64,000 nt of DNA, taken from positions 78,616,001 to 78,680,000 of the forward strand of contig CM059425.1 of the NCBI GenBank assembly GCA_030390025.1. The letters run 5' to 3'. Position 1 is the first letter of the stretch. Every line of letters starts with the position of its first letter. The notes under the pieces are model-generated. The model was not told where the DNA came from, ran no database searches, and worked only from the letters and a program-made list of their open reading frames with translations. Of the stretch, positions 1,567 through 64,000 are shown piece after piece. Both the position numbers and the translations under genes were made by a program. The DNA is from Squalus acanthias. Lineage: Eukaryota.

Positions 1567-1993
1567 TTTTATTCATTGTGTGTCACTGACAAGGCCAGTA
1601 TTTAATGCCCTTGGCAAATTGCCCTGAAAAGGTAGCGGTGGGCCGCCTTCTTGATCCACTATGTAGGGGTTTGATACAACTGAGGGCAGATGGCTGTTAA
1701 GAGTCAACCATGTTGATGTGGGACTGGAGTCATGTATAGGTCAGACCGGGTAAGGACGGCAGATTTCCTTCCCTAAAGGATATTAGTGTACCGAGTGAAA
1801 CAGTTGAGTTTTTATGACAATCCAATAGCTTCATTGTCACTTTTACTGAAACCAGCTTTTTATTTCCAGATTTTTTAAAACCGATTTCAAATTCTGATAC
1901 TGCCATGGTGGGATTTGAACTCATATTCTCTGGATTATTAGTCCAGGGCCTTGGATTACTACTCCAGGAGCATAACCACTGCACTAGCATACC
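1567..1993 (-). mobile_element. tRNA-headed SINE-like element (internal-deletion derivative of the tRNA-headed LINE)
   Basis: The minus strand starts with an A-box-like TAGTGCAGTGG, a duplicated anticodon-like arm and a B box GAGTTCAAATCC. The body matches 63200-63470, and the 3' tail matches the LINE end at 29010-29111. Confidence 0.8.
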
Positions 1994-2079
1994 ATTCAAT
2001 GCCATAGTACTTTACAGTGATTATTAGAAATTAACTTTATAGTCGTACAATTTCAGGTAAGTAGAATTCCTCATAGTGT

Positions 2080-2345: not shown

Positions 2346-2774
2346 GTGGGTGTCAGTGCATCCAGATAAGACACGGCTGTTTGAAGCAGCTTACGCTGCA
2401 GAAGTATAGAAACTCTAAAGTAGAGGCAGTTGAGAGAATGAGTGCAGGTAGGAAATTAGGGTATGAAAACTGTAGAAAACTGAAGCTGGGCAGAGAAGCA
2501 AAAAGAAACAATGATCATGGAGTGAAGGAGCATGAGGCAGAAAATGGAAAGCAGAAAAGGGGAAAACGGGGAAAGGAGAGAACGAAAGAAAGACATGATT
2601 AAATTAGAGGAGATATACTGGTGTGGAATTGGTATTTTTTAATTTACTTTTGCTTTGCTATTTCTGGTAATTGTTCGGGTTGTCATTTGACTGCCCTCCT
2701 CCCTCACTGCTTGAATGCTGTTGTGATGTATCAATGCAAGAATAAGAATTTTTAAAGTAAACGCTATATCAATG

Positions 2775-3145
2775 TACCATGGTTGCAGTGTGTACCATCT
2801 ACAAGATGCACTGTAGCAACTCACCAAGGCTTCTTCGGCAGCACCTCTCAAATCCGTGACCTCTTCCACCTAGAAGGACAAGGGCAGCAGGCGCATGGGG
2901 ACACCACCACCTCCAAGTTCCCCTCCAAGTCACACACCATCCTGACTTGGAAGTATATCGCCGTTCCTTCATCGTCGCTGGGTCAAAATCCTGGAACTCC
3001 CTCCCTAATAGCACTATGGGAGTACCTTCACCACACGGACTGCAGTGGTTCAAGAAGGTGGCTCACCACCACCTTCTCAAGGGCAATTAGGGATGGGCAA
3101 TAAATGCTGGCCTTGCCAGCGACGCCCTCATTCCATAAACGAATA
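2775..3145 (+). mobile_element. 3' fragment of the tRNA-headed LINE family
   Basis: Closely matches 28735-29105. Confidence 0.85.
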
Positions 3146-8570: not shown

Positions 8571-10085
8571 TCTTTATGTTAACAACCCGAGACCTTTCTT
8601 TAGTTAATTAAATTATGCATTGTGTCAAACTATTACAGCATTATTTTAGGCAGACAAATTGATAGCTTTACATTCAGTTTGGAGAATTGGAGGTGCTCTG
8701 CTGTTTTGAGTCTGATGTATAGAATGGGTACAGGTAGCACTACCTACTCCAATGCTACAAACAGATTAATGAGGAATGAATAGTTGCATAGTTTAAAGAT
8801 TGCCAAGTGAATGAATTTGCAGTGTTGACTTTGCCTGTTTGACATGCAGGGACTGGGATGGTTAACAGCTGTTGCTGACATAGCAGTATCTGTGATATTT
8901 AAAGACAGGAGGCAGGAATTCAGCAGCTGGTGTGACACCAGTGGTCTAACCCTAATTCCAGGACTGGAGGGAGTCTAGGGTGTTGTATGGAAAGCAGCCG
9001 TTTTTTTTTGTGCAGCAGTAACTGTGCATCTGGAATGTAACAGTCCTTTTGCAGCTGGTCCTTTGAGATATTGTGCATTAGCAGTGAGCCCAGTGATACC
9101 GTTATCAACGAACCACACCTTCAAACACTTTCTTAGAAATCCTGAACCGCTTTACTCCTACTCATGGCAGTTACAGTATGCATAATCATTAACCGATAGA
9201 TGTACTCATGCCAATTGTTGGTCTCGGGAGCAGTTCTATAATTTTACATTCTTTTAAAAGGTAAAATATATATTTTATTGACTGCTCTTTTGTGGCTCAC
9301 TCGCATTCAATTGTACAATGGATTAACACATATATAAATCATTCAAGGGGACATTATGTGCAAAAGTGGTTTCCTTTCATTATGCTTTGGATGATTATCT
9401 TTTGCTGTCAATACATGTGACACATCAGACGTAATCATTCCGCTTCCTAATGGTGTCCTGCCCACATTTTAGGGATGGGCAATAAATGCTGGCCTTGCCA
9501 GCGACGCCCACATCCCAGGAACGAATTAAAAACATTAAAAAAATTACCAATGAAATTCTGCTTTAGGAATTCAAACTTATCTCATGTAGTTTGTACAGTA
9601 TCGATGTCTACTTTTCGGCGGTAGTTGTAGAAACATGTTGCAGTCCTGCTGGAAGCCTGGAATTTCATTCACCGCTGCTTGTACAGGGTAGACATGACTA
9701 GTTCTTTTTATTAACTTCCTATAACTTTGTGCTTCTTACTCAAAGTTACAATACCGTGTAAATTGCTCCAAGTTATAGCATCTATTTGTTGAAATGGAGG
9801 AGCTCCAACCTCTGAAGAATTCTTCTACTGTACTTGAGTTTAACAGTGGCAGATGAGATTCTATATAGACGTTGCAAGGTACTGCATTTTGGAAGTAAAA
9901 ATAGGTGACTTGTGCTCAATTAACTCGTCACTCAGCATGTCAGAACCTTCTGAGGCTAAAGTAATCAAATGGAATGCTGAGCTATGTGGCCAAATCAGTT
10001 GAGTTCAACACCCAGAAGTCATAATGGAGACCTACAGTGCCCAGTTCAGGCTCCATGTGGGGGACGGTCCCCAGAAATTGGAAAA

Positions 10086-26199: not shown

Positions 26200-27359
26200 A
26201 TACTGTTGAAAATGTGTGCCGTTAGCTTAATTGATTTATGTTGGAAGGTAGCTCATGAAAATGATTACTGAAAATGATGGAAATACAGAGCAGGTTACAA
26301 AGTTTTGGGTTAGTATTCTTCATTAGACTGAAGCGTACCAAATATTTTATGAAGGGTATGTTCCCAAAACGCCATAACCTGACTTTTCTCTTTACAAATG
26401 CTGACCGACTTCTATTTCCAGCATTTTCTGCTTCTATTTGAGATTTCCTACATTTGCAGTTTTTCCCTTTATTTCATTAAGATGATTATTGGCAGAAGTG
26501 GTAGTGAAAATGAGATGTTGGATGAAAAAAGTAGTAATTTTATTAATGATTGATTCTCTCTGTTCTGCAAAAATACATAGTTTGCATTTTTATTAATTGG
26601 ACAAGGATTATTTTGGGATTTATATCAATACCAGCCCAAAATGATAAAAATATACACATTTTGATGGTGTATGTGTGCAGGGGAAGGGGGAATCCTCGAC
26701 TTCATTCTTTTCCTTCAGGGGGTTCCTGAGTAGCAAATTGTTGAAACTCCCCTGTTTTAGAATAACTGGTCAACAGAGCGGTAGGAAAAATTAGGAGTGA
26801 AACCCATCAGACACAATCGGGGTATAACTCCATCTTCATTTATATACTCAAAGATTCTTATAAACACAAGACTGTTTCTGGATTTAAAGTGTTGATATTG
26901 AAAATCAGATCAAGTTCAGGTCAATGAATGAACTACATACAGGTGAGGAAGCAAAGTTGGAAAATAATTTTTTAAAATATTTGAATTTGAAAATATTTCC
27001 TAAATGATGAACATCTAAATTAGTACGGTTCCTGAGAAAGCCTTGTTGACAATAAACTAAAGCAAAGTCTCTCTCCTTGTTGTTTGCAAATGTTGACCAT
27101 AAGTGATGAGCCCTTGTAAGGAGGGCCTTCTTGTGAAAACATATAAAGATAGCCTTTCTGGTCAGCAGGGGTCAACCCCAGATCCAGACACTGAGACAAT
27201 AGACAATGTTCTACAATATATACAAAGGTTGAAGGTTTCAATAAGTGGAATTGGAAAGAAAGTATTCTAACTTTAAAGAGTAAATAAATTATTGATAAGT
27301 CAAATTACCTGAGTTTTTCTTTATCTTGGGATGTAAGAGAGGCAGTTTTACTTTTCCTT

Positions 27360-29112
27360 GAATAGCCCCCTCCTCAATGATGGTGGAGCCCAGTACGTGA
27401 GTGCAAAAGACAAGGTTGAAGCATTTGCAACCTTCTTCAGCCAGAAGTGCTGAGTGGATGATCCATATCGGCCTACTCCCAAGGTCCCCACCATCACAGA
27501 AGCCAGTCTTCAGCCAATTCGATTCACTCCACGTGATATCAAGAAATGGCTGAGCGCACTGGATACAGCAAAGGCTACGGGCCCCGACAATATCCCTGCT
27601 ATCGTGCTGAAGACTTGTGCTCCAGAACTAGCCGTGCCTCTAGCCAAGCTTTTCAAGTACAGCTACAACACTGGCATCTACCAGACAATGTGGAAAACTG
27701 CCCAGGTATGTCCTGTCCACAAAAAGCAGGACAAATCCAAACCGGCAAATTACCATCCCATCAGTCTATTCTGTCATCAGCAAAGTGATGGAAGGTGTAG
27801 TCGACAGTGCTATCAAGCAGCACTTACTCACCAATAACCTGCTTACCGATGCTCAGTTTGGGTTCCGCCAGGACCACTTGGCTCCAGACCTCATTACAGC
27901 CTTGGTCCAAACATGGACAAAGAGCTGAATTCCAGAGGTGAGGTGAGAGTGACTGCCCTTGACATCAAGGCAGCATTTGACCGAGTGTGGCATCAAGGAG
28001 CCCCAGTAAAATTAAAGTAATTGGAAATCAGGAGCAAAACTCTCCACTGGCTGGAGTCATACCTAGCACAAAGGAAGATGGTTGTGCTTGTTGGAGGCCA
28101 ATCATCTCAGCCCCAGGACCGCTGCAGGAGTTCCTCAGGGCAGTGTCCTAGGCCCGACCATCTTCAGCTGCTTCATCAATGACCTTCCCTCCATCAAATG
28201 TGGATGTTCGCTGATGATTGCACAGTGTTCAGTTCCATTCGCATCTCCTCAGATAATGAAGCTGTCTATTCCCGCATGCAGCAGGACCTGAACGACATTC
28301 AGACCTGGGCTGATAAGTGGCAAGTAACATTCGCGCCACACAAGTGTCAGGCAATGACTATCTTCAACAAGAGAGCGTCTAGCCACCACCCCTTGACATT
28401 CAACGGCATCATCATCGCCGAATTCCCCCAACATCAACATCCTGGGGGTCACCATTGACCAGAAACTGAACTGGACCAGCCACATAAAAACTGTGGCTAC
28501 AAGAGCAGGTCAGAGGCTAGGTATTCTGTGGCGAGTGTCTCACCCCCTGACTCCCCAAAGCCTTTCCACCATCTACAAGGCACAAGTCAGGAGTGTGATG
28601 GAATGCTTTCCACTTGCTTGGATGAGTGCAGCTCCAACAACACTTAAGAAGCTCGACACCATCCAGCAGAAAGCAGCCCGCTTGATTGGCACCCCATCCA
28701 CCACCTTAAACATTCACTCCCTCTACCACCAGCGCACCGTGGCTGCAGTGTGTACCATCTACAAGATGCACTACAGCAACTCGCCAAGGCTTCTTTGTCA
28801 GCACTTCCCAAACCCGCAACCTCTACCACCTAGAAGGACAAGGGCAGCAGGCGCATGGGAATACCATCACCTCCAAGTTTCTTTCCAAGTCACACACCAT
28901 CCTGACTTGGAAGTATATCGCCAATCCTTCATCGTCGCTGGGTCAAAATCCTGGAACTCCCTCCCTAACAGCACTGTGGGAGTACCTTCACCACGCGGAC
29001 TGCAGCGGTTCAAGAAGGCGGCTCACCACCACCTTCTCGAGGGCAAATAGGGATGGGCAATAAATGCTGACCTTGCCAGCGACGCCCACATCCCAGGAAC
29101 GAATAAAAAAAA
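27360..29112 (+). mobile_element. 5'-truncated LINE (CR1/L2-group RT; tRNA-headed family)
   Basis: KATGPDNIP, GVPQGSVLGPTIFSCFINDLP and MFADDCTV, with a short 3' UTR and A-rich end. Confidence 0.92.
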
Positions 29113-33143: not shown

Positions 33144-33511
33144 TGGCCCGGTCAATGGCAAGGCAAAGGCATTCGCTGCTGGCCCCGACGAAAACTGCCC
33201 ACAGAGATCTCGCGAACCCCAGTTACACCTAATCCAACAAGGCTTAACATTTAATGGGGTACTTAACAGCGATAGTACTGCGGAAAAGCCCAAGTTTTCG
33301 TCAGTTTCACTGATTGCCGGCTATGGGGGGATGGGGGTGGGGGGGAAGACACAGCGCAGCCAGTGTCAGAGCAGTGAATGACCGACCGCAACTTCAGGAT
33401 TTCCGCGTTTAGATGCGCATGCGCTACATCCTGAAGTTGCGTTCAGTTTCAAAGGGGTTATAGCAGCGAATGCTGTTAATTTGCCGTTATTACCCACCGC
33501 TAATTCCGGCG
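33144..33511. mobile_element. Short Harbinger-type MITE remnant
   Basis: Homologous to 35100-35363 and 62440-62730, with an internal hairpin at 33387-33441. Confidence 0.6.
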
Positions 33512-33589
33512 CACTGGGTTTTCACTGCAAAAAGAAACACACATTTACAATGCAGAGATGTAGGACATATAATACAACAACACAGAGCT

Positions 33590-33920
33590 GTAAGAACATA
33601 AGAATAAAAGAAATAGAAGCAGGAGTAGGCCATACGGCCCATCGAGCCTGCTCTGCCATTCAATAAGATCAACTCCACTTTCCCGCCCTATCCCCATATC
33701 CCTTGATTCCCTTAGTGCCCAAAAATCTATTGATCTCAGTCTTGAATATTCTTATTGACTAAGCATCCACTGCCCTCTGGGGTAGAGAATTCCAAAGATT
33801 CACAACCCTCTGAGTGAAGAAATGCCTCCTCATCTCAGTCCTAATTGGCCGACATCTTATCCTGAGACTGTGACCCCTAGTTCTAGACTCTCCAGCCAGG
33901 GGAACTAACCCCTCAGCATC
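33590..33920 (-). mobile_element. CR1 LINE 3' end
   Basis: Encodes RTRGHSLRI...FFTQRVVNLWNSLP and has a TAAGAACA tail. Confidence 0.85.
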
Positions 33921-34606
33921 GAGCAGTAGACAGGTATTTGAGAGAAAAAGGAACAGACCATTTGGAATGTGTGGGGGGAAAAAAAAAGCAAGATTGTGTC
34001 TGTGTGAGAGAGAGAGCGAGATGGGGTTAAATAGAACAGTTTTAGACAAATTAGAATGCATGAATTTTGCAACTGCTACTGTTCACTGCAATTGCATTAC
34101 TTAAATGTTCATTTTGTCTAAAGGAAGTAGCTTGTGTCAAAATCCAAGTGATACGGATAAAGTTTGCAGCAAAGAATACTGTTTAATAGATAAAAGTCTC
34201 CTCCAAACAATGCATACAACTCGCATTGACTGGTGACTTTTCTATTGGATCATTTCCAGCCAGTGACAAATGGATCACAAAATGTCACATCAGGTAAAGA
34301 ATTAAGATTAAACATTAACTAAACACTGTAATATATTTGTCAGCTTGATGATCGGGGGCAGTTTGGATTTGAACCCCTCAATCTCATAACTGGACTTTAG
34401 GTTCTGGTTTGCGATAGGAGATTGAAATTCTAACTGCCCAATTGGACAATCAGTAGCATATTTGATTATTAGAGAGGCAGCAAAAATTACAGATTAATCA
34501 GTGCAAATTCAGTAACTGCAACTTTTTTTTCTTGCTACATTTCTATATCAGACTTGTATTTGGCAAACAGCTGCTTCATGTTGCTTGCTTTTTAGCTCAG
34601 AATAAT

Positions 34607-35363
34607 GGCCCGGATTTTGCTGTCAGTGGTGAAGCGATGGCGCTCGCCACTGACCTCAAAGAAAGCTGCCCGCAAAGATCTAGCGATCTCTGTGGCATGG
34701 ATTTCACCTTTCCCGATGTTAATTTCATTCTGGCGTCACCTATAGGGGATCTCCAGCGTCCAGAAACAGTGATGTCATCAAGCAGGCTAAGCAGCCAATC
34801 ACATTAAAGAATTCTCACAGACAGCAAACCAGGCAGTAAAAGGCAGTTTTTATCATTCACATTTTAAAACTTTAACAGAAAGCAAAATAAAGATAGGGAC
34901 ATACACATGGGATTAAGGTAGAAGCTGAAATATCATAAACAATCTTTAAAAAAAATATTTTTTATTATTTTAAAAATCATGGAATTTTTATCATGTATTG
35001 CAGGAAATGAGACTCCACATATAAAATGAGTTTTTCAGGGTCAGAGAGGAGTAATTATGACTTAGTACACCGTTAAAATTTCTGTTACACCTCAATAAAC
35101 AAGGCGTAACTTTTTAAAGGGTTTTACAGCGAGAATAGAGCGTGAAAAGCTGAAGTTCACGTCAATTCACTGATTGTGTTGATTGCATCTGCAAGGACTG
35201 CAACAGCGCACTCCGTGGAGGAGCAGGGTCTCACTGAAAGAAACTTCAGGATTTTCTACGTTTAACTGTGCATGTGCGAACTCCAGAAGTTGCTGTCAGT
35301 TTTACAGAGTAATGACAGTGAATGCTGACAGTTTCGCCGTCATTACAACCGCAAATTGGGGCC
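34607..35363. mobile_element. Harbinger-type MITE
   Basis: TIRs GGCCCGGATTTTGC / GCAAATTGGGGCC, TSD AAT. Confidence 0.8.
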
Positions 35364-40729: not shown

Positions 40730-41242
40730 AACTTGATCCAGATGTGGACGCACAACTGAATTCCACAGGAGGGGGTGAGAGTAGCTGCCCTCAACATCAA
40801 GGCAGCATTCGACCAAGAATGGAATCAAGAAGTCCTTGCAAAACTGGGGTCAATGGGAAAACCCTTCAGTGGCATCCGACATACAGGAAGATGTTAGTAG
40901 TTGTCGCAGCCACAGGACATCAGTGTAGGAGTTTCTAGGGCAGCATCCTTTAGCTATTTCATCAATGACCTTCCTCTGTCATAAGGTCAGGAGTGGGGCT
41001 GTTTGCTGCTGATTCTACAGTGTTCAGCTCCTACAGCATGTTCTCCAATAATGGAGCACCCCATGCCAGTCTCCAGCAGGATCTGGACAACATCCAGGCT
41101 TGGGCTGACAAATGTCAGGTAACATTCGTGCCACATAAGGCAATGAGCATCTCCAATAAGGAAAGGCCCAACCCCCTCCCAACCTTCAGTGGCACCACCA
41201 CCACCAAGCACCCCATCATCAACATCCTAGGGTTCACCAATG
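40730..41242 (+). mobile_element. Old RT fragment of the tRNA-headed LINE family (resumes at about 46800-46860)
   Basis: LFAADSTVF...LQQDLDNIQAWADK, homologous to 27900-28460. Confidence 0.8.
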
Positions 41243-41776
41243 ATGTAATGTTTATTGGACTAGCCTTATATCAACACTTTTTATTATTCATTCCTGGGAT
41301 GTGGGTGTCACTGGCAAGGTTGGCATTTGTTCCCATCCCAAGTTACCCTGTACAACTGAGTGGCCTAGAAGGAAGTTAAGGGTTACATTAAGAGACTGGA
41401 ATCACTGAGTGCGGATTGAACAGAGTGCTGCGAGTTGGGTGAGTCAGGGAGTTAGGTGAGGAGTGGAAGGAGGAGCTCCCTTGCTTCGCCTTTGTTTTTC
41501 CTAACTTTTCACCCTGTAGCAATTGGTTCTTACTTTACACCAAGGAAAGGGCCCGAGAGCGGGAGCAGTCAAACAACAACAGCTAAAGTGACGTCACAAC
41601 CAGGGAAGGAGCTGATTGGTAAGTAGGACCTGGTGAGTATTTCTACAGTCCAGTCGTTAAAGTCAAAGTAAGGTCTCTAGTTTAGAGTAAGTAGTGTTTA
41701 AAGGGACGTAAGGTCCCTAGTGTATTTAATATTCTTTAAATTAAAGGAAGTAAAGGGAGTAAATTAAGGGTAGGAC

Positions 41777-46570: not shown

Positions 46571-47382
46571 TATAACTCTATGACTATGACTCTATATAGG
46601 CCAGACCAGGTAAGGACAGCAAGTTTTCTTTTATTTAGGACATTAGTGAACCAGTTCGGTTTTTACAACAATCCAGTAGCTCCGTGGTCACTTTCTTTCA
46701 ACTGTTACCAGCTTCTTATGTCCAGATTTTTATTTTAACTGAATTCAAATTCTCAAACTGCCCTGGTGGAACTTGGAACTCAAATTCTCTGAATTATAAG
46801 AGCAGAGCAGAGGCTGGGTACTCTGACAACTGGCCCACCTCCTGACCCCTTGAGCCAGGGGTTTGATGGAACATTCACCACTTAAGGATGGAGCCTTGAG
46901 GTGCTGCGGCGGTGACTGTCCAGGGTGGAAAGAGAAGCCATTGATGTGTTGACTATTTTCGGACAGGTGGGAGTAGAAAAAGGCAAGGTGAACCACAGAG
47001 GATAGGCAGTGGAGGGGGATTAAAATGCCAAATGTAGCTGTGGGTGGGGTAGGAGAATAGTGCAAAATAATTTGCTCTTTCCACACCTTAACTTCAAAAT
47101 ACCCAGGAAGTTCTTTTAACTTCCATGTGGTTGATCACAGTATAAAATCCTATAGTATGTTCTGTAGAGTCCTCTTTATCTCTGCAAAATTATTCCAAAA
47201 ATCCATACTGATCATCTGGAACCTTGTTGGAAATTTTGGAATGACATCTTGGTAGATATTTTGACATGAATATTATTGCACTTACCAGCCTCTGACTAAG
47301 AAAGAAATTACTTTGAATGGAGCAACAATGTTTGACTTTACCCAAAATTACCCAAAGTTGCATTAATACAGTACAACATAAT

Positions 47383-58604: not shown

Positions 58605-60362
58605 ACTGTAGAATTGACAAGAATAAAAATCTAACCGGCAGATTCAAATGGCGTTGCAAATTATGGGCTATATCTTTTGGCAGTAATGTAAAATGGACAC
58701 TATCTCATTGGCTGCCCATTGTATACCTTTCCTGAGGTGTATAATGGGCAGCTGATTCGATATTGCCCGTTTTACACAATTGCCAAAAGTTCAAATTATC
58801 CCCCATGAAAGTAAAGCTGGAACAAGTTCGAGGCGATTTCTGAATCACCTGCCCCCTGGCCCCTGATTGGAGCGCTGTTTTGTATCTCACCCACAGTATA
58901 GATATCTGCCACTAATGCATCAACTAAAGCCTGGCTGCAAATTTACTTTGTAAATGTTATATTATTGCCTCTGGCTTCTAGGAGACCCACTGGAAGGGGT
59001 GATTGCCAAACAATGGAGGTGCATACTGGGATCCTGCCTTCAGTCTTGGCACCACTAGATTTTAAATATTATTTCATCTTCCTTTATTCTACCAATTCTC
59101 CCCTCTTCATTATTTCTCTCTTGAAGGTGTCTGACCCTAAACAGTGAGTGTCAGCAAGATATTCCACCATAGGGCATCGTGGTTGAGCCAAAATTTGTCC
59201 TCCCCTAACTTCTGCATATGTGCACTTCCACCCTGGGTTGTCTCCCTGACTCTCTCTGCTTTGAGATCAGTCAAAGTCTCCCTTACGCTGCTCTGGTTGA
59301 GATTAACTAACTTAGCCAAGTCTATTGATGGAGCCGTGGCACTTACGGTTCAGTATACTTAAAAATTCCTGCCAACTGAGTGAGCAGTGGCTAGAAATTT
59401 AAGACTTTGGAATCTTCCCTCCCTCCCTCCTGTTATGTCCAAAGAAACACTCAATATTAGCGTGGTGATAACTAACTGCTTTTATTTCCAGATCCTCTAG
59501 AACATTCTCATTAAAGAATAACAAAAGAGAAATGTAATTGCTACAATGTGTTTACTTCTGTCAGGGTGCTATCTAGTGTTCAGTTAACAATATGCAAGTA
59601 CCATACACTGGGACTAATAACAGGAGCAGTAGATGCTAACCTCTTTTCCCCCCCTCAAAATTAAAAAGTGAAAATAATCATCTCCAAGAATGAGCTTGGT
59701 TAACAGCTAAGAAACATTAAGTCAAGAAATTAAGCAACTCGATCTTACGATAACGTGATAAAAAAAACTAACCATAGCAATCTCCTGGTAGTACGCAGGA
59801 GAGATGGGTTATGCCAACACTAGACATACACACATAGGAACAAGTACGGACGGGGAAAGATGATTGTAATGCCATTGAATGTCAAGGGGTGGTGATTGGA
59901 CTCTCTCTTGTTGGAGATAGTCATTGCCTAGCACTTCTGTAGCACAAATGTTACCTGCCACTTATCAGCCCAAGCCTGGATGTTGTCTAGGTCTTGCTGC
60001 ATGCGGGCACGGACTGCTTCATTATGAATGGAACTGAACACTGTGCAATCATCAGCGAGCATCCACACTTCTGACCTTATGATGGAGGGAAGGTCATTGA
60101 TGAAACAGCTGAAGATGGTTGGGCCTAGTTCACTGCCCTGAGGAACTCCTGCGGCGTTGTCCTGGGGCTGAGATGATTGACCTCCAACAACTACAACCAT
60201 CTTCCTTTGTGCTAGGTATAACTCCACCCACTGGAGAGTTTTTCCCCTGATTCCCATTGACTTCTGTTTTAATAAGGCTCCTTGGTGCCACACTCAGTCA
60301 AATGCTGCCTTGATGTCAAGGGCAGTCACTCTCACCTCACTTGGAATTCAGCTCTTTTGTCC

Positions 60363-60711
60363 ATAGAATCATAGAAATTTATGGCACAGAAGGAGGCCAT
60401 TCATCCCATTGTGTCCACGCCGGCCGAAAAGGAGCTATCCAGCCTAATCCCGCTCTTTCCAGCTCTTGGTCCGTAGCCTTGTAGGTTACGACACTTCAAG
60501 TGCATATCCAAGTACTTTTTAAATGTGGTGAGGGTTTCTGCCTCTACCACCTTTTCAGGTAGTGCGTTCCAGACCCCAACCTCCCTCTTGGTGAAAACAT
60601 TTCTCCTCAGCTCCCCTCTAATCTTTCTACCAATTACTTTAAATCTATGCCCCTGGTTATTGTCTTTAAGGGAAATAGGTTCTTCCTATCCACACTATCT
60701 AGGCCCCTCAA
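60363..60711 (-). mobile_element. CR1 3' end nested in the tRNA-headed LINE
   Basis: CATAGAAT tail and similarity to 45400-45720. Host LINE sequence resumes on both sides. Confidence 0.85.
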
Positions 60712-62417
60712 GGACCAAGGCTGTGATGAGGTTTGAAGTTGAATGTTCCTGGTGGAACCCAAATTGCGCATTGGTGAGCAGGTTATTGGTGAGTAAGTGC
60801 CGCTTGATAGCACTGTCGATGACACCTTCCATCACTTTGCTGATGATTGAGAGTAGGCTGATGAGGTGGTAATTGGTCGGATTGGATTTGTCCTTCTTTT
60901 TGTGGACAAGACATACCTGGGTAATTTTCCACTTTGTCTGATAGATGCCAGTGTTGTAGCTATACTGCAACAGCTTGGCTAGAGGCACAGCTAGTTCTGG
61001 AGCAGACATCTTCAGCACTACAGCCAGGATGTTGTTGGGGCCCATAACCTTTGCTGTATCCAGTGCACTGAGCCGTTTCTTGACATCACGTGGAGTGAAT
61101 CGAATTGGCTGAAGACTGGCATCTGTGATGGTGGGGACCTCAGGAGGAAGCTGATATATATCATCCACTTGGCACTTCTGGCTGATGATAGTTGTGAAGG
61201 CTTCAGCTTTGTATTTTACACTCACCTGCTGGGCTCCACCATTGTTGAGGATGGGAGTGTTCATGAAGCCTCCTCCTCCTATTAGTTGTTTAATTGTCCA
61301 CTACCATTCACGACTGGATGTGGCAGGACTGCATAGCTTTGATCTGAACTGTTAGTTGCGATATTGCTTATCTCTGTCTAGCATGCATGTAGTCCTGTGT
61401 TATAGCTTCACCAGGTTGGCACCTAATTTTCAGAAACACCTGGTGCTGCTCCTGGCATGCTCTTCTACACTCCTCATTGAATCAGGCTGGGTCACCTGGC
61501 TTGATAGTAATGGTAGAGTGAGGGATATGTTGGGCCATGAGGTTACAGATTGTGGTGGAATACAATTCTGCTGCTACTAATGGCCCAAGACAGCTCAGGG
61601 ATGCCCAGTTTTGAGCTGTTAGATGTGTTCTGAATCTATGCATTCGCACAGTGGTAGTGCCACACAACGCGATGGAGAGTGTCCTTGGTGTGAAGACGGA
61701 ACTTTATCTCCACAAGGACTGTGCGATGGTCATTCCTACCAATGCTGTCATGGACAGATGCATCTGCTACAGGTAGATTGGTGAGGACGAGGTGAAGTAG
61801 CTTTTTCCAATATGTTGGTTCTCTCACCACCTGCCGCAAGCTCAGTCTGGCAGCTATGTCCTTCAGGACTCAGCCAGCTTAGACAATGGCGGTGCCACCA
61901 AGCCACTCTTGGTAATGGACATTAATGTTCCCCACCCAGAGCACATTCTATGCTTTTAGTGCTTCTTCCAAGCAGTGTTCAAGATGGAGGAGTACGAATT
62001 CATCAGCTGAGGGTTGGTGGTAATCAGCAGGAGGTTTCTTGCCCGTGTTTGACCTGATGCCATGAGATTTCATGGGGTCCGGAGTCAATATTGAGGACTC
62101 CCAGGCGCACTCCCTCCCAACTGTATACCACTGTCCTGCCACATCTGGTGGGTCTGTCCTGCCGGTGGGACAGGACATACCCAGGGATGGTGATGGAGGA
62201 GTTTGGGACATTGGCTGAAAGGTGTGATTCTGTGAGTATGAATATGTCAGGCTGTTGCTTGACTAGCCTGTGGGACAGCTCTCCGAACTTTGGCACAAGT
62301 CCCCAGATGTTAGTGAGGAGGACTTTACAGGGTTGACTGGGCTGGGTGTGCCTTTTCTTGTGTCTGAATCCGATGCCTAGGTCGACACCGAGTGCTCCAT
62401 CCAGTTTTATTCTTATT

Positions 62418-63192
62418 AGCCCTGAATTCTTGGTTGGTATGATGGCGAACTGTCAGAGTACGCTGTCATTCTGCCTTTGAAACTGACCGCAACTTCGGGA
62501 TTTGGCGCAAGCGCGTGCTGAAATCCCGAAGTTGCGGTCTGTCAATGACAGCTCCTAAACTGCCTGCGCTGTGCCCCCTGACATAGAGCCGGCAATCAGT
62601 GAAATCTGGTAAATCATTGAAACTGACGAAAACTTCGGCTCTTCCGGAGTAAGTACGCTGTTAAATTCCCCACTAAACGTTAGACTCAAAGGGATTAGGT
62701 GTAACTGGGGTTTTAACAGCGTATTGACTGCTAAACAATGGTTAAGGACATGGAAAACTCATTTTAATTTTGTGCAGTGTGAAATTAGTCCGTTTTAATA
62801 AAAATTAAAAATTTTAAGAAACTTTTCAAAAATGATTTAAAATTATTTTTTAAGTTTGTCTATCTTTATTTCAGGTTTGCCTCTTCCCCATGTGAGAACC
62901 CCAATCTTTTTTTTTGCTCTATCTAACTACTTTAAAAAGTTTGAATTTTAAGGGCTCACTCACTTCCTTGTTTGCTGTCTGTGAGAATTCTGCCTTTTGA
63001 TTGGCTGCTTAGACAGCCTGTTGACGTCACAGCAGTTCGAACAAGGGGATTCCCATTAAGTTCCGTTGAATTGAATTCAAGGTCGGAAAACCCGAAGTTC
63101 TCGACACAGGGATTGTGAGATTCTTGTGCGGAGCCTACTTCGGAGCCAGCAGCGAAAGCCTTCGCTTCACCGCTGACCGCAAATTCCGGGCC
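62418..63192. mobile_element. Harbinger-type MITE inserted in the 5' part of the tRNA-headed LINE ORF
   Basis: TIRs AGCCCTGAATT / AATTCCGGGCC with flanks ATT/AAT (imperfect TSD). Inverted relative of 34607-35363. Confidence 0.8.
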
Positions 63193-64000
63193 AATATATG
63201 TCTTTGTAGCAGTTTGATACAACTGAGTGGCTTGCTAGGCCATTTCAGAGGACAGTTAAGAGTCAACCAAGCTGATGTGGGTCTGGAGTCACATATAGGC
63301 CAGACCGGGTAAGGGCAGCAGGCTTCCTTCCCTAAAGGACATTAGTGAACCAGTTGGATTGTTACGACAATCCGATAGCTTCATGGTCACCATTACTGAT
63401 ACTAGCTTTTTATTCCAGATTTATTTAATTGTTTTTTCTTAACTGAATTCAAATTCACAAACTGCCATGGTGGGATTTGTACTCGCCTCTCTGGATTATT
63501 AGTCCAGTAACATAATCACTACATCATTGCACCTGCCTGCAGCCCTGTTGTTCCCTCATGCTGGCAGTACTGTAAAACCTTTCTGGAAATTCCCCAGGCA
63601 CTGAGTTATTGGAGCGCAAGAAAAATGCTTTACAATCTTCTCCAAAGCAACTGCTGGCCGTGCACATACTTACACTGAAATTATGCTAAGAACTCCTATT
63701 ATGTGAATGCTTAACACCTTTCAAATAAATGGATTAATACCTCTGCATTAACAGTTTGTATATTATAATCCCATGCCTTAATTTCAAGTTCATAATTTAA
63801 AAATCTTTGTTAAATAACTTCCTTTCTTTTCCTTTCCTCCCTCCCTCCTTTTCCCTTCCTTCAAACTGTATTACTTTGCAAAATATATTTTCTCACTGAT
63901 GTGGTTCTGTTAATTATTTACATGTCATTGGAAGAAATATTGGTTTATGACTTAGAATTGCAAGTATTAGTGAATATATTTCACTGCCCTGTATACATTT

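What the first reader, a model, noticed from the sequence alone, without database searches (positions are those of the whole stretch)
59860..63534. Candidate Pol III-driven autonomous retrotransposon: tRNA head fused to a single APE-RT ORF, with no sense-strand TTTT
Seen: what looks like a tail-less SINE (63193-63534) beside a LINE (59860-62417) becomes one continuous minus-strand element once the MITE at 62418-63192 is removed. It starts with a tRNA-like head (A-box-like TGATGTAGTGA, arm CTGGA-CTAATAA-TCCAG, B-box-like GAGTACAAATCC, CACCA) and a leader of about 220 nt. The frame QATQLYQTATKTY..NKNKTGWSTRCRPRHR then leads, with one frameshift, into the APE N-terminus KVLLTNIWGL and on to RT. 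There is no ORF1. By eye I find no run of 4 or more T on the sense strand over about 2.5 kb of element sequence, whereas A4+ runs recur and the CR1s in this window contain many T4+ runs. Established: T4+ terminates vertebrate Pol III, LINEs are normally Pol II transcripts, and tRNA heads define SINEs. Inference: this is a roughly 3.3-kb protein-coding LINE selected for Pol III read-through. I cannot tell whether it is already catalogued.
Basis: partly seen in the sequence, partly recalled or inferred. Interest (0 to 1): 0.88.

Follow-up and report, generated by a model that had tools for sequence, protein, structure and literature searches.

The report
Shark retrotransposon with a tRNA-gene promoter
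A jumping gene of sharks and rays begins with a tRNA-like promoter, avoids that polymerase's stop signals and has no normal start codon, so it likely makes its protein from an RNA polymerase III transcript, a route thought to be closed to protein-coding elements.

Summary
Real, and more than a chance adjacency. The window holds a decayed copy (MITE and CR1 insertions, 3' end lost) of a 3.3-kb single-ORF APE-RT LINE. Of 119 copies picked by their ORF, 112 continue into the same leader and 26 start at exactly the first base of a tRNA-Ser-like head with A and B boxes; none showed shared sequence further upstream. The family is catalogued: it matches SquAca_Zenon-1 (Stuart 2026 supplement), and all five elasmobranch species' Zenon consensuses there start with the same head, unremarked. 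Pol III terminator-like 5-mers are depleted beyond codon usage (1 vs 11.6, P=0.0005; T4 alone only P=0.03-0.3). 3' ends resemble T+ SINEs (AATAAA, variable T-run, A tail). New: the ORF has no Met before residue 287, stops block the upstream ATG in 97 of 100 copies, yet shared variants show purifying selection. A conserved structured leader ends in an anticodon-like AGC loop that can pair with the first codon, GCU. Best reading: an autonomous Pol III LINE with cap-independent, non-AUG initiation (0.7). No transcript or ribosome data. Internal deletions yield SINE-like derivatives.

The parts
63462..63534 (-). tRNA-Ser-like head (decayed here; one of two duplicated anticodon-like arms deleted)
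   Evidence: Rfam tRNA 19.6 bits, below gathering; family head aligns to the genome's own tRNA-Ser(GCT), score 57 vs shuffle maximum 38; only Ser tRNAs were compared
63516..63526 (-). A box (decayed; family form TAGCRTAGTGG)
   Evidence: 16 of 32 full-length copies exact
63473..63484 (-). B box (family form GAGTTCAAATC)
   Evidence: 23 of 32 exact
63211..63461 (-). leader; the family's first 338 nt hold 8 upstream ATGs; last ~150 nt nearly invariant across five elasmobranchs; predicted structured ribosome-loading element
   Evidence: by eye
63228..63242 (-). predicted anticodon-like stem-loop TGGC-CTAGCAA-GCCA; holds the in-frame TAG that closes ATG-GCC
63195..63210 (-). inferred start of the ORF at GCT (63208-63210), basic N-terminal arm ATKTY
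62416..63194 (.). inserted MITE-like element with 13-nt imperfect terminal inverted repeats; either boundary choice keeps the frame
   Evidence: absent from the other copies
60712..62415 (-). ORF: N-terminal arm, APE, linker, start of RT (frameshifts and stops)
   Evidence: Pfam RVT_1 on the window piece, PF14529/PF03372 on sister copy L091; 87% to the family majority
60362..60711 (-). inserted CR1 3' fragment with ATTCTATG tail; holds 2 T4 runs
59862..60361 (-). RT 3' part; the copy ends here (family nt 2618 of 3314)

Best explanation
This is a decayed copy of the elasmobranch Zenon LINE, whose full-length form starts with a tRNA-Ser-like head and is likely transcribed by RNA polymerase III and likely translated without a cap or an AUG. 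Shown: head, ~240-nt leader, one 973-codon APE-RT ORF and a tail form one 3.3-kb unit; the ORF was under purifying selection in source lineages; it has no Met before residue 287; terminator-like T-runs are depleted. Inferred steps: (1) TFIIIC binds the A/B boxes and Pol III starts at base 1; (2) it reads 3.3 kb because T4/TVTTT are absent, stops in a T-run at the tail, and the RNA is polyadenylated through AATAAA as in T+ SINEs; (3) the uncapped RNA loads ribosomes on the structured leader and starts at or just after the conserved GCU, probably through an anticodon(AGC):codon(GCU) mimic like dicistrovirus IGR IRESs (this specific step about 0.35); (4) APE-RT copies its own RNA by target-primed reverse transcription (established for LINEs), giving 5'-truncated copies and, by internal deletion, short head+leader+tail elements that are ordinary SINEs in form.
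For: Junction in 27 of 29 and 112 of 119 copies; 26 start at nt 1 and 35 within 11 nt; flanks are unrelated. Five published elasmobranch consensuses, one from a ray, begin with the head, whereas coelacanth and hagfish Zenons do not and carry T4 runs in their first 400 nt (by eye). A/B boxes are kept while the acceptor stem cannot pair. Terminator-like 5-mers 1 vs 11.6 expected (P=0.0005); T4+TVTTT 0 vs 6.1 (P=0.002); A, C and G controls not depleted; 63 of 63 relatives have obs/exp of 0.76 or more; host CR1s 0.9-1.2. At 3' ends T>=5 in 22 of 146 vs 1 of 146 in the flank; AATAAA intact in 53 of 58 LINE-length ends. First Met at aa 287/285 in both subfamily majorities; 97 of the first 100 of 3,537 start-region matches have TAG and/or TAA after the upstream ATG; an older variant has GTG there. 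Shared variants 39 syn:28 non:0 stop vs singletons 467:1551:90; recurrent indels in the N-terminal arm are 3 nt. Contigs bridge leader and ORF in 3 of 4 other organisms.
Against: No transcript end, cap, polymerase or ribosome data: the runs found are contigs and none is on record as RNA. T4 absence alone is weak (P=0.04-0.31 by null); low T content (19.6%) explains much, and relatives L316 (1 T4) and L172 (0 T4) come close. No shared variant creates a T4, but only about 1 was expected. The terminator set was combined after reading PMC8466645. T-runs before A tails can arise by slippage, and head-less relative L313 also ends in TATTT plus an A tail. The leader folds no better than shuffles (z=0.70) and matches no Rfam IRES. 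In-genome covariation is mostly subfamily linkage; 192/264 is one event. The proposed AGC:GCU pairing is only 3-4 bp and shows no compensatory change. 3 of 100 copies are open from the upstream ATG. No intact copy was seen (longest open frame 931 aa).
Confidence: 0.7

Rival explanations
1. Pol II makes the RNA (from an internal or upstream promoter); the head is a captured relic or a processing mark (for example for RNase P) that defines the 5' end.
For: LINEs are taken to be Pol II transcripts (PMC5786205); poly-A tail and AATAAA suit Pol II; T4 scarcity is partly compositional.
Against: Promoter boxes are kept while the acceptor stem that RNase P needs is lost (the RNase P requirement is recalled). 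Pol II gives no reason for the T-specific depletion. Eight upstream ATGs would hinder cap-dependent scanning.
Confidence: 0.15
2. Pol III or not, translation starts at the upstream ATG-GCC-TAG mini-ORF and reaches the ORF by read-through or AUG-independent reinitiation rather than by an IRES-type tRNA mimic.
For: ATG GCC TAG is in all five published consensuses; 3 of 100 copies are open from it; AUG-independent ORF2 reinitiation in L1 is recalled.
Against: A second stop (TAA) follows in the dominant subfamily; the whale-shark spacer is 1 nt shorter and out of frame (by eye); the older variant has GTG. Reinitiation cannot be excluded by sequence.
Confidence: 0.15
3. The tRNA-headed copies are non-coding passengers moved in trans by an unseen AUG-bearing Zenon.
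For: No intact copy was seen; searches score only the best candidates.
Against: Purifying selection on variants shared among the headed copies; no other 5' end in 119 copies or in five published consensuses.
Confidence: 0.05
4. Chance neighbourhood of a SINE and a LINE at this locus.
For: Short head+tail forms exist.
Confidence: 0.01

Closest known systems
Elasmobranch Zenon (CR1 group), SquAca_Zenon-1 and relatives; Stuart et al. 2026, PMC13343379
   Same: Same element: visible first 400 nt match my majority sequence by eye apart from a few letters, and both are 3,314 nt; single ORF, no ORF1, poly-A tail.
   Different: The word 'tRNA' has 0 hits in that paper's main text and in the held supplement text. 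In the passages I saw, head, T-run avoidance and missing AUG are not described.
Other Zenons (Lepidoptera, coelacanth, hagfish, marine invertebrates) and the Persaeus SIDE, PMC6740152
   Same: RT clade, about 3.3 kb, basic arm before APE, internal-deletion derivatives.
   Different: No tRNA head or Pol III promoter (stated for Persaeus; no A/B boxes upstream of 57 relatives, some with little upstream DNA), T-runs present, usually an N-terminal Met (gene callers also print M for GTG/TTG).
tRNA-derived SINEs, especially T+ SINEs (B2, Dip, Ves; PMC8466645)
   Same: tRNA head with A/B boxes; AATAAA, variable T-run, A tail.
   Different: Encodes its own APE-RT; 'SINEs cannot encode a protein' (PMC5786205); T+ SINEs were reported only from mammals.
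RTE-1_DAn and relatives
   Same: A LINE said to contain a tRNA-like sequence (one sentence in PMC5786205): a possible precedent.
   Different: RTE clade; position, promoter role and start codon are not given there, and I could not examine the sequence.
Type 6 (dicistrovirus IGR) IRESs, PMC12221177 and PMC4132737
   Same: Non-AUG start at or after GCU, 7-nt anticodon-like loop with variable A-rich linker, UUUA and CUGCC loops in a ~150-nt core.
   Different: No Rfam match, three pseudoknots not established, pairing only 3-4 bp, sits in a retrotransposon.

Membership tests
Zenon (CR1 group) | RT falls in the Zenon clade / identity to a catalogued Zenon | tested here: met
   Matches SquAca_Zenon-1 by eye over 400 nt, same length; quick tree puts it in a 40-row clade (SH-aLRT 99) apart from host CR1s, with unnamed references
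Zenon (CR1 group) | No ORF1; single APE-RT ORF | tested here: met
Zenon (CR1 group) | Poly-A tail | tested here: met
tRNA-derived SINE (SINE2) | tRNA-derived head with A and B boxes at the 5' end | tested here: met
tRNA-derived SINE (SINE2) | Non-coding, non-autonomous | tested here: not met
   973-codon ORF under purifying selection; only the short derivatives meet this
tRNA-derived SINE (SINE2) | Transcribed by Pol III | not testable with these tools
   only indirect signs; no raw RNA reads
T+ SINE | AATAAA, terminator or rudiment, A tail | tested here: inconclusive
   AATAAA in 53 of 58; T>=4 in 17 of 58 LINE-length ends; slippage not excluded
Deu-SINE / SacSINE1 | Deu domain and L2-type tail | tested here: not met
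   by eye only a 10-mer is shared with hagfish Deu alignments and nothing with UCON3; the tail is this LINE's own; the SacSINE1 sequence itself was not seen
Type 6 IGR IRES | Non-AUG start, mostly GCU | tested here: met
   no in-frame Met; frame constraint begins at about GCT; actual start not measured
Type 6 IGR IRES | PKI anticodon:codon mimic | tested here: inconclusive
   loop AGC and GCT(A) kept in five species by eye; 3-4 bp, no compensatory change
Type 6 IGR IRES | PKII/PKIII, SLIV, SLV, L1.1; match to the family model | tested here: not met
   no Rfam IRES hit at E<=10 or E<=1; only loop look-alikes; other subtype models not available
Type 6 IGR IRES | Factor-free ribosome binding | not testable with these tools
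   needs toeprinting or binding assays

The most novel reading that the evidence does not exclude
A natural protein-coding Pol III gene: an autonomous 'coding SINE', kept since sharks and rays split, that makes a 970-residue enzyme from an uncapped Pol III RNA through a factorless, tRNA-mimicking IRES, the first such IRES outside RNA viruses, and that spawns SINEs by simple internal deletion.
Probability: 0.3. Interest if true: 0.95.

Novelty: new variant of a known kind. Interest (0 to 1): 0.84.

Why it matters
The SINE/LINE divide rests on Pol III RNAs being short and non-coding and LINEs being Pol II mRNAs. A vertebrate LINE that carries a tRNA promoter, clears its ORF of terminators and drops its AUG would break that divide. 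It would show that Pol III can supply a functional 3.3-kb mRNA in nature and offer a one-step origin for SINEs (deletion of a headed LINE rather than fusion of a head to a LINE tail). It would also provide a cellular candidate for IGR-type initiation. Each step can be tested with simple reporters.

Tried and rejected
Target-site duplications: none convincing in 39 copies. ARAGORN does not call the head in LINE copies (0 of 14 own-genome loci at the head; one unrelated tRNA-Met call in L089) nor any tRNA in 46 relatives' loci; it does call the short-form head at window 1900-1994 as tRNA-Thr. Rfam scans gave nothing above gathering. MFE folding was uninformative. The pairing 240-246/260-266 was rejected in favour of 192-201/254-264 because the older variant breaks it. 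AACTG/CAGTT and an AACC:GGTT pseudoknot were rejected because other species break them (by eye). My SLc pairs were mis-registered and are ignored. The +1-frame reading (MKPDGPPG...) was rejected as the N-terminus: three shared changes are silent only in frame 0 versus one the other way, and relatives have the basic arm. The leader has no match in viral contigs or in 93 relatives' loci. One viral locus with a weak RT match was not pursued. The look-up of sequencing runs: no RNA holder listed; X17 listed no contig bridging the junction. The careful tree did not finish; the quick tree is reported. L243 was a mistyped region with no element and was dropped; nine loci fetched twice were counted once. 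Earlier findings: none. Repbase, Dfam and SINEBase could not be searched.
Full report
Observation. The motifs and the T-run asymmetry are in the sequence. The copy covers family positions 1-2618 and has lost its 3' end.

One element, not two. The window lies in a 3.7-Gb genome; protein fragments 73-85% identical are named from three shark genera. Searching with the ORF's 5' part, 27 of 29 other loci had head or leader joined directly upstream. Among 119 copies chosen by ORF sequence (20, 99; the best-scoring only), 112 extend into the leader, 35 reach the first 11 nt and 26 start at nt 1; the rest are 5'-truncated at scattered points. Upstream flanks are unrelated (15 copies aligned; 32 tabulated), so there is no ORF1. 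Full-length natural copies run head, leader, APE-RT, tail and A-rich end over about 3.3 kb. Starting from the head, 16 of 29 loci continue into the ORF, 5 near-identical loci reach it after a CR1 insertion, and 6 end in the LINE's own tail. These short forms have many different junctions and often keep the first codons or last ORF bases, which points to repeated internal deletion of the LINE. In four other organisms' runs both parts are covered, and listed contigs bridge leader and ORF in three.

Identity. Pfam gives APE and RVT_1. RT is 48% identical to unnamed ~940-aa single-ORF relatives and 30-33% to host CR1s, which fall in another clade of a quick tree. Stuart et al. 2026 (PMC13343379; abstract, passages, supplement rows) report Zenon elements in five elasmobranchs, without ORF1 and with poly-A tails, not deposited in repeat databases. 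Their SquAca_Zenon-1 is 3,314 nt, as is my majority of 39 copies, and matches it by eye over the 400 nt visible. CarCar, HypSab (a ray), RhiTyp and ScyCan Zenon-1 begin with the same head; the coelacanth and two hagfish Zenons do not. 'tRNA' has 0 hits in the main text and the held supplement text. So the family is known and the head is old, but unremarked there.

Promoter. The head aligns from its first base with the genome's tRNA-Ser(GCT) (57 vs shuffle maximum 38; seven Ser loci tried, two not above shuffles, no other isotype). A and B boxes are exact in 16 and 23 of 32 full-length copies, while the acceptor stem cannot pair. That pattern suits a promoter better than a processing substrate (inference).

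Terminators. In the ORF majority, T4 is 0 against 1.1-3.1 expected (P=0.04-0.31): weak alone. Using the minimal terminators T4 and TVTTT defined in PMC8466645 (passages), the element has 0 against 6.1 (P=0.002), and all 4-of-5-T windows 1 against 11.6 (P=0.0005), with amino acids and codon usage held fixed. A, C and G are not depleted; the lowest ratio among 63 relatives is 0.76 and host CR1s give 0.9 and 1.2. The older, window-type majority also has no T4. T content (19.6%) and Phe (1.85%) are below all relatives measured. Against: L316 and L172 have 1 and 0 T4; the shared-variant test had little power (0 of 234, about 1 expected); dead copies gain T4 at the neutral rate. At 3' ends a T-run of 1-11 sits before the A tail: T>=5 in 22 of 146 ends against 1 of 146 in the flank, with AATAAA upstream in 53 of 58 LINE-length ends. 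This is the T+ SINE pattern, but slippage could also make it.

Translation. The ORF has no Met before residue 287 (285 in the older majority), past the whole APE domain. The nearest upstream ATG is closed by TAG and, in the dominant subfamily, also by TAA; 97 of the first 100 listed of 3,537 exact matches carry at least one stop (counted from the list); 282 older matches have GTG. Yet variants shared among copies are 39 synonymous:28 non-synonymous:0 stop, against 467:1551:90 for singletons, and recurrent indels after GCT are 3 nt. The protein was therefore likely made without an AUG. By eye, the five published leaders keep a ~150-nt core almost unchanged, with the loop CTAGCAA and the GCTA that opens the frame invariant and the 8-9-nt linker variable. 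Three pairs change compatibly: 192/264 (T-A to A-T; 62 vs 38 of 126 copies), 217/235 (G-C in whale shark, G-U in ray) and 303/319 (A-U in ray, G-C in older copies). Type 6 IRESs start mostly at GCU, subtype 6f at ACA, behind an anticodon:codon mimic (PMC12221177, passages), and a U pair next to the mimic occurs in IAPV (PMC4132737, abstract). Against: no Rfam IRES match, no folding signal, mostly subfamily-linked covariation, a pairing of only 3-4 bp. I file the leader as working like an IRES, not as a Type 6 member.

Novelty. Ten literature searches (listings and abstract starts) showed no autonomous tRNA-headed or Pol III LINE. [quoted passage not shown] Also seen: PMC5499810 (parts 1-2; supplement not held, and it may show whether SacSINE1 relates to the short form), PMC7245038 (passages, supplement part), PMC6740152 (part 2), PMC3894237 (part 1), PMC10294476, PMC11481361 and 10.1101/443036 (passages; preprint supplements closed). 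Repeat databases and most subscription journals were not searchable, so the short form or the head may be annotated there.

Verdict. A known family with an apparently undescribed expression strategy: Pol III transcription about 0.75, non-AUG start about 0.85, IGR-type mechanism about 0.35, joint best explanation 0.7, interest 0.84.

Noticed in passing
window 1582-1998 (-): Short head+leader+tail derivative of the same family; ARAGORN calls its head tRNA-Thr(AGT).
   Followed up: partly
window 27355-29112, 2774-3144, 2083-2344, 9470-9532 (+); 46594-46800 (-); 40732-41243 (+, 70%): Further fragments of this family, the last one more distant.
   Followed up: no
L104, L106, L120, L313 upstream of the ORF; LatCha_Zenon-1: Head-less Zenon leaders from distant hosts share a structured-looking motif (GCCCGAAC...TAGC...GAGGCTGC, later TGAGGCC); no Rfam match. 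Possibly the ancestral ribosome-loading element or a ribozyme.
   Followed up: partly
P0001-P0011: The closest non-shark relatives have inconsistent N-termini, several starting inside the first APE strand, so they may also lack an AUG; their upstream DNA was not obtained.
   Followed up: no
L172:102-2375; L316:73-2799: Relatives with 0 and 1 T4 in 2.7-2.9 kb; too little upstream DNA to look for a head.
   Followed up: partly
window 62416-63194; L033 at the same site: Two different GGGC/GGCC-ended MITE-like elements inserted at the same TA-rich spot just after the ORF start; related MITE pieces at window 33215-35037.
   Followed up: no
L041-L043, L049, L051, L052: Near-identical loci (four on contig C2339) in which a CR1 piece interrupts the element right after the leader: probably a duplicated segment.
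   Followed up: no
G000:C26:39.0-41.3 Mb: Long tandem arrays of tRNA-Ser(GCT)-type genes at about 1.62-kb spacing.
   Followed up: no
L229:670 (run X9): In organism C the conserved leader core also continues into a different 3' sequence, suggesting another repeat shares the core.
   Followed up: no
L312-L320: Eukaryotic non-LTR retrotransposon contigs sit inside several bacterial MAGs, probably host contamination.
   Followed up: no
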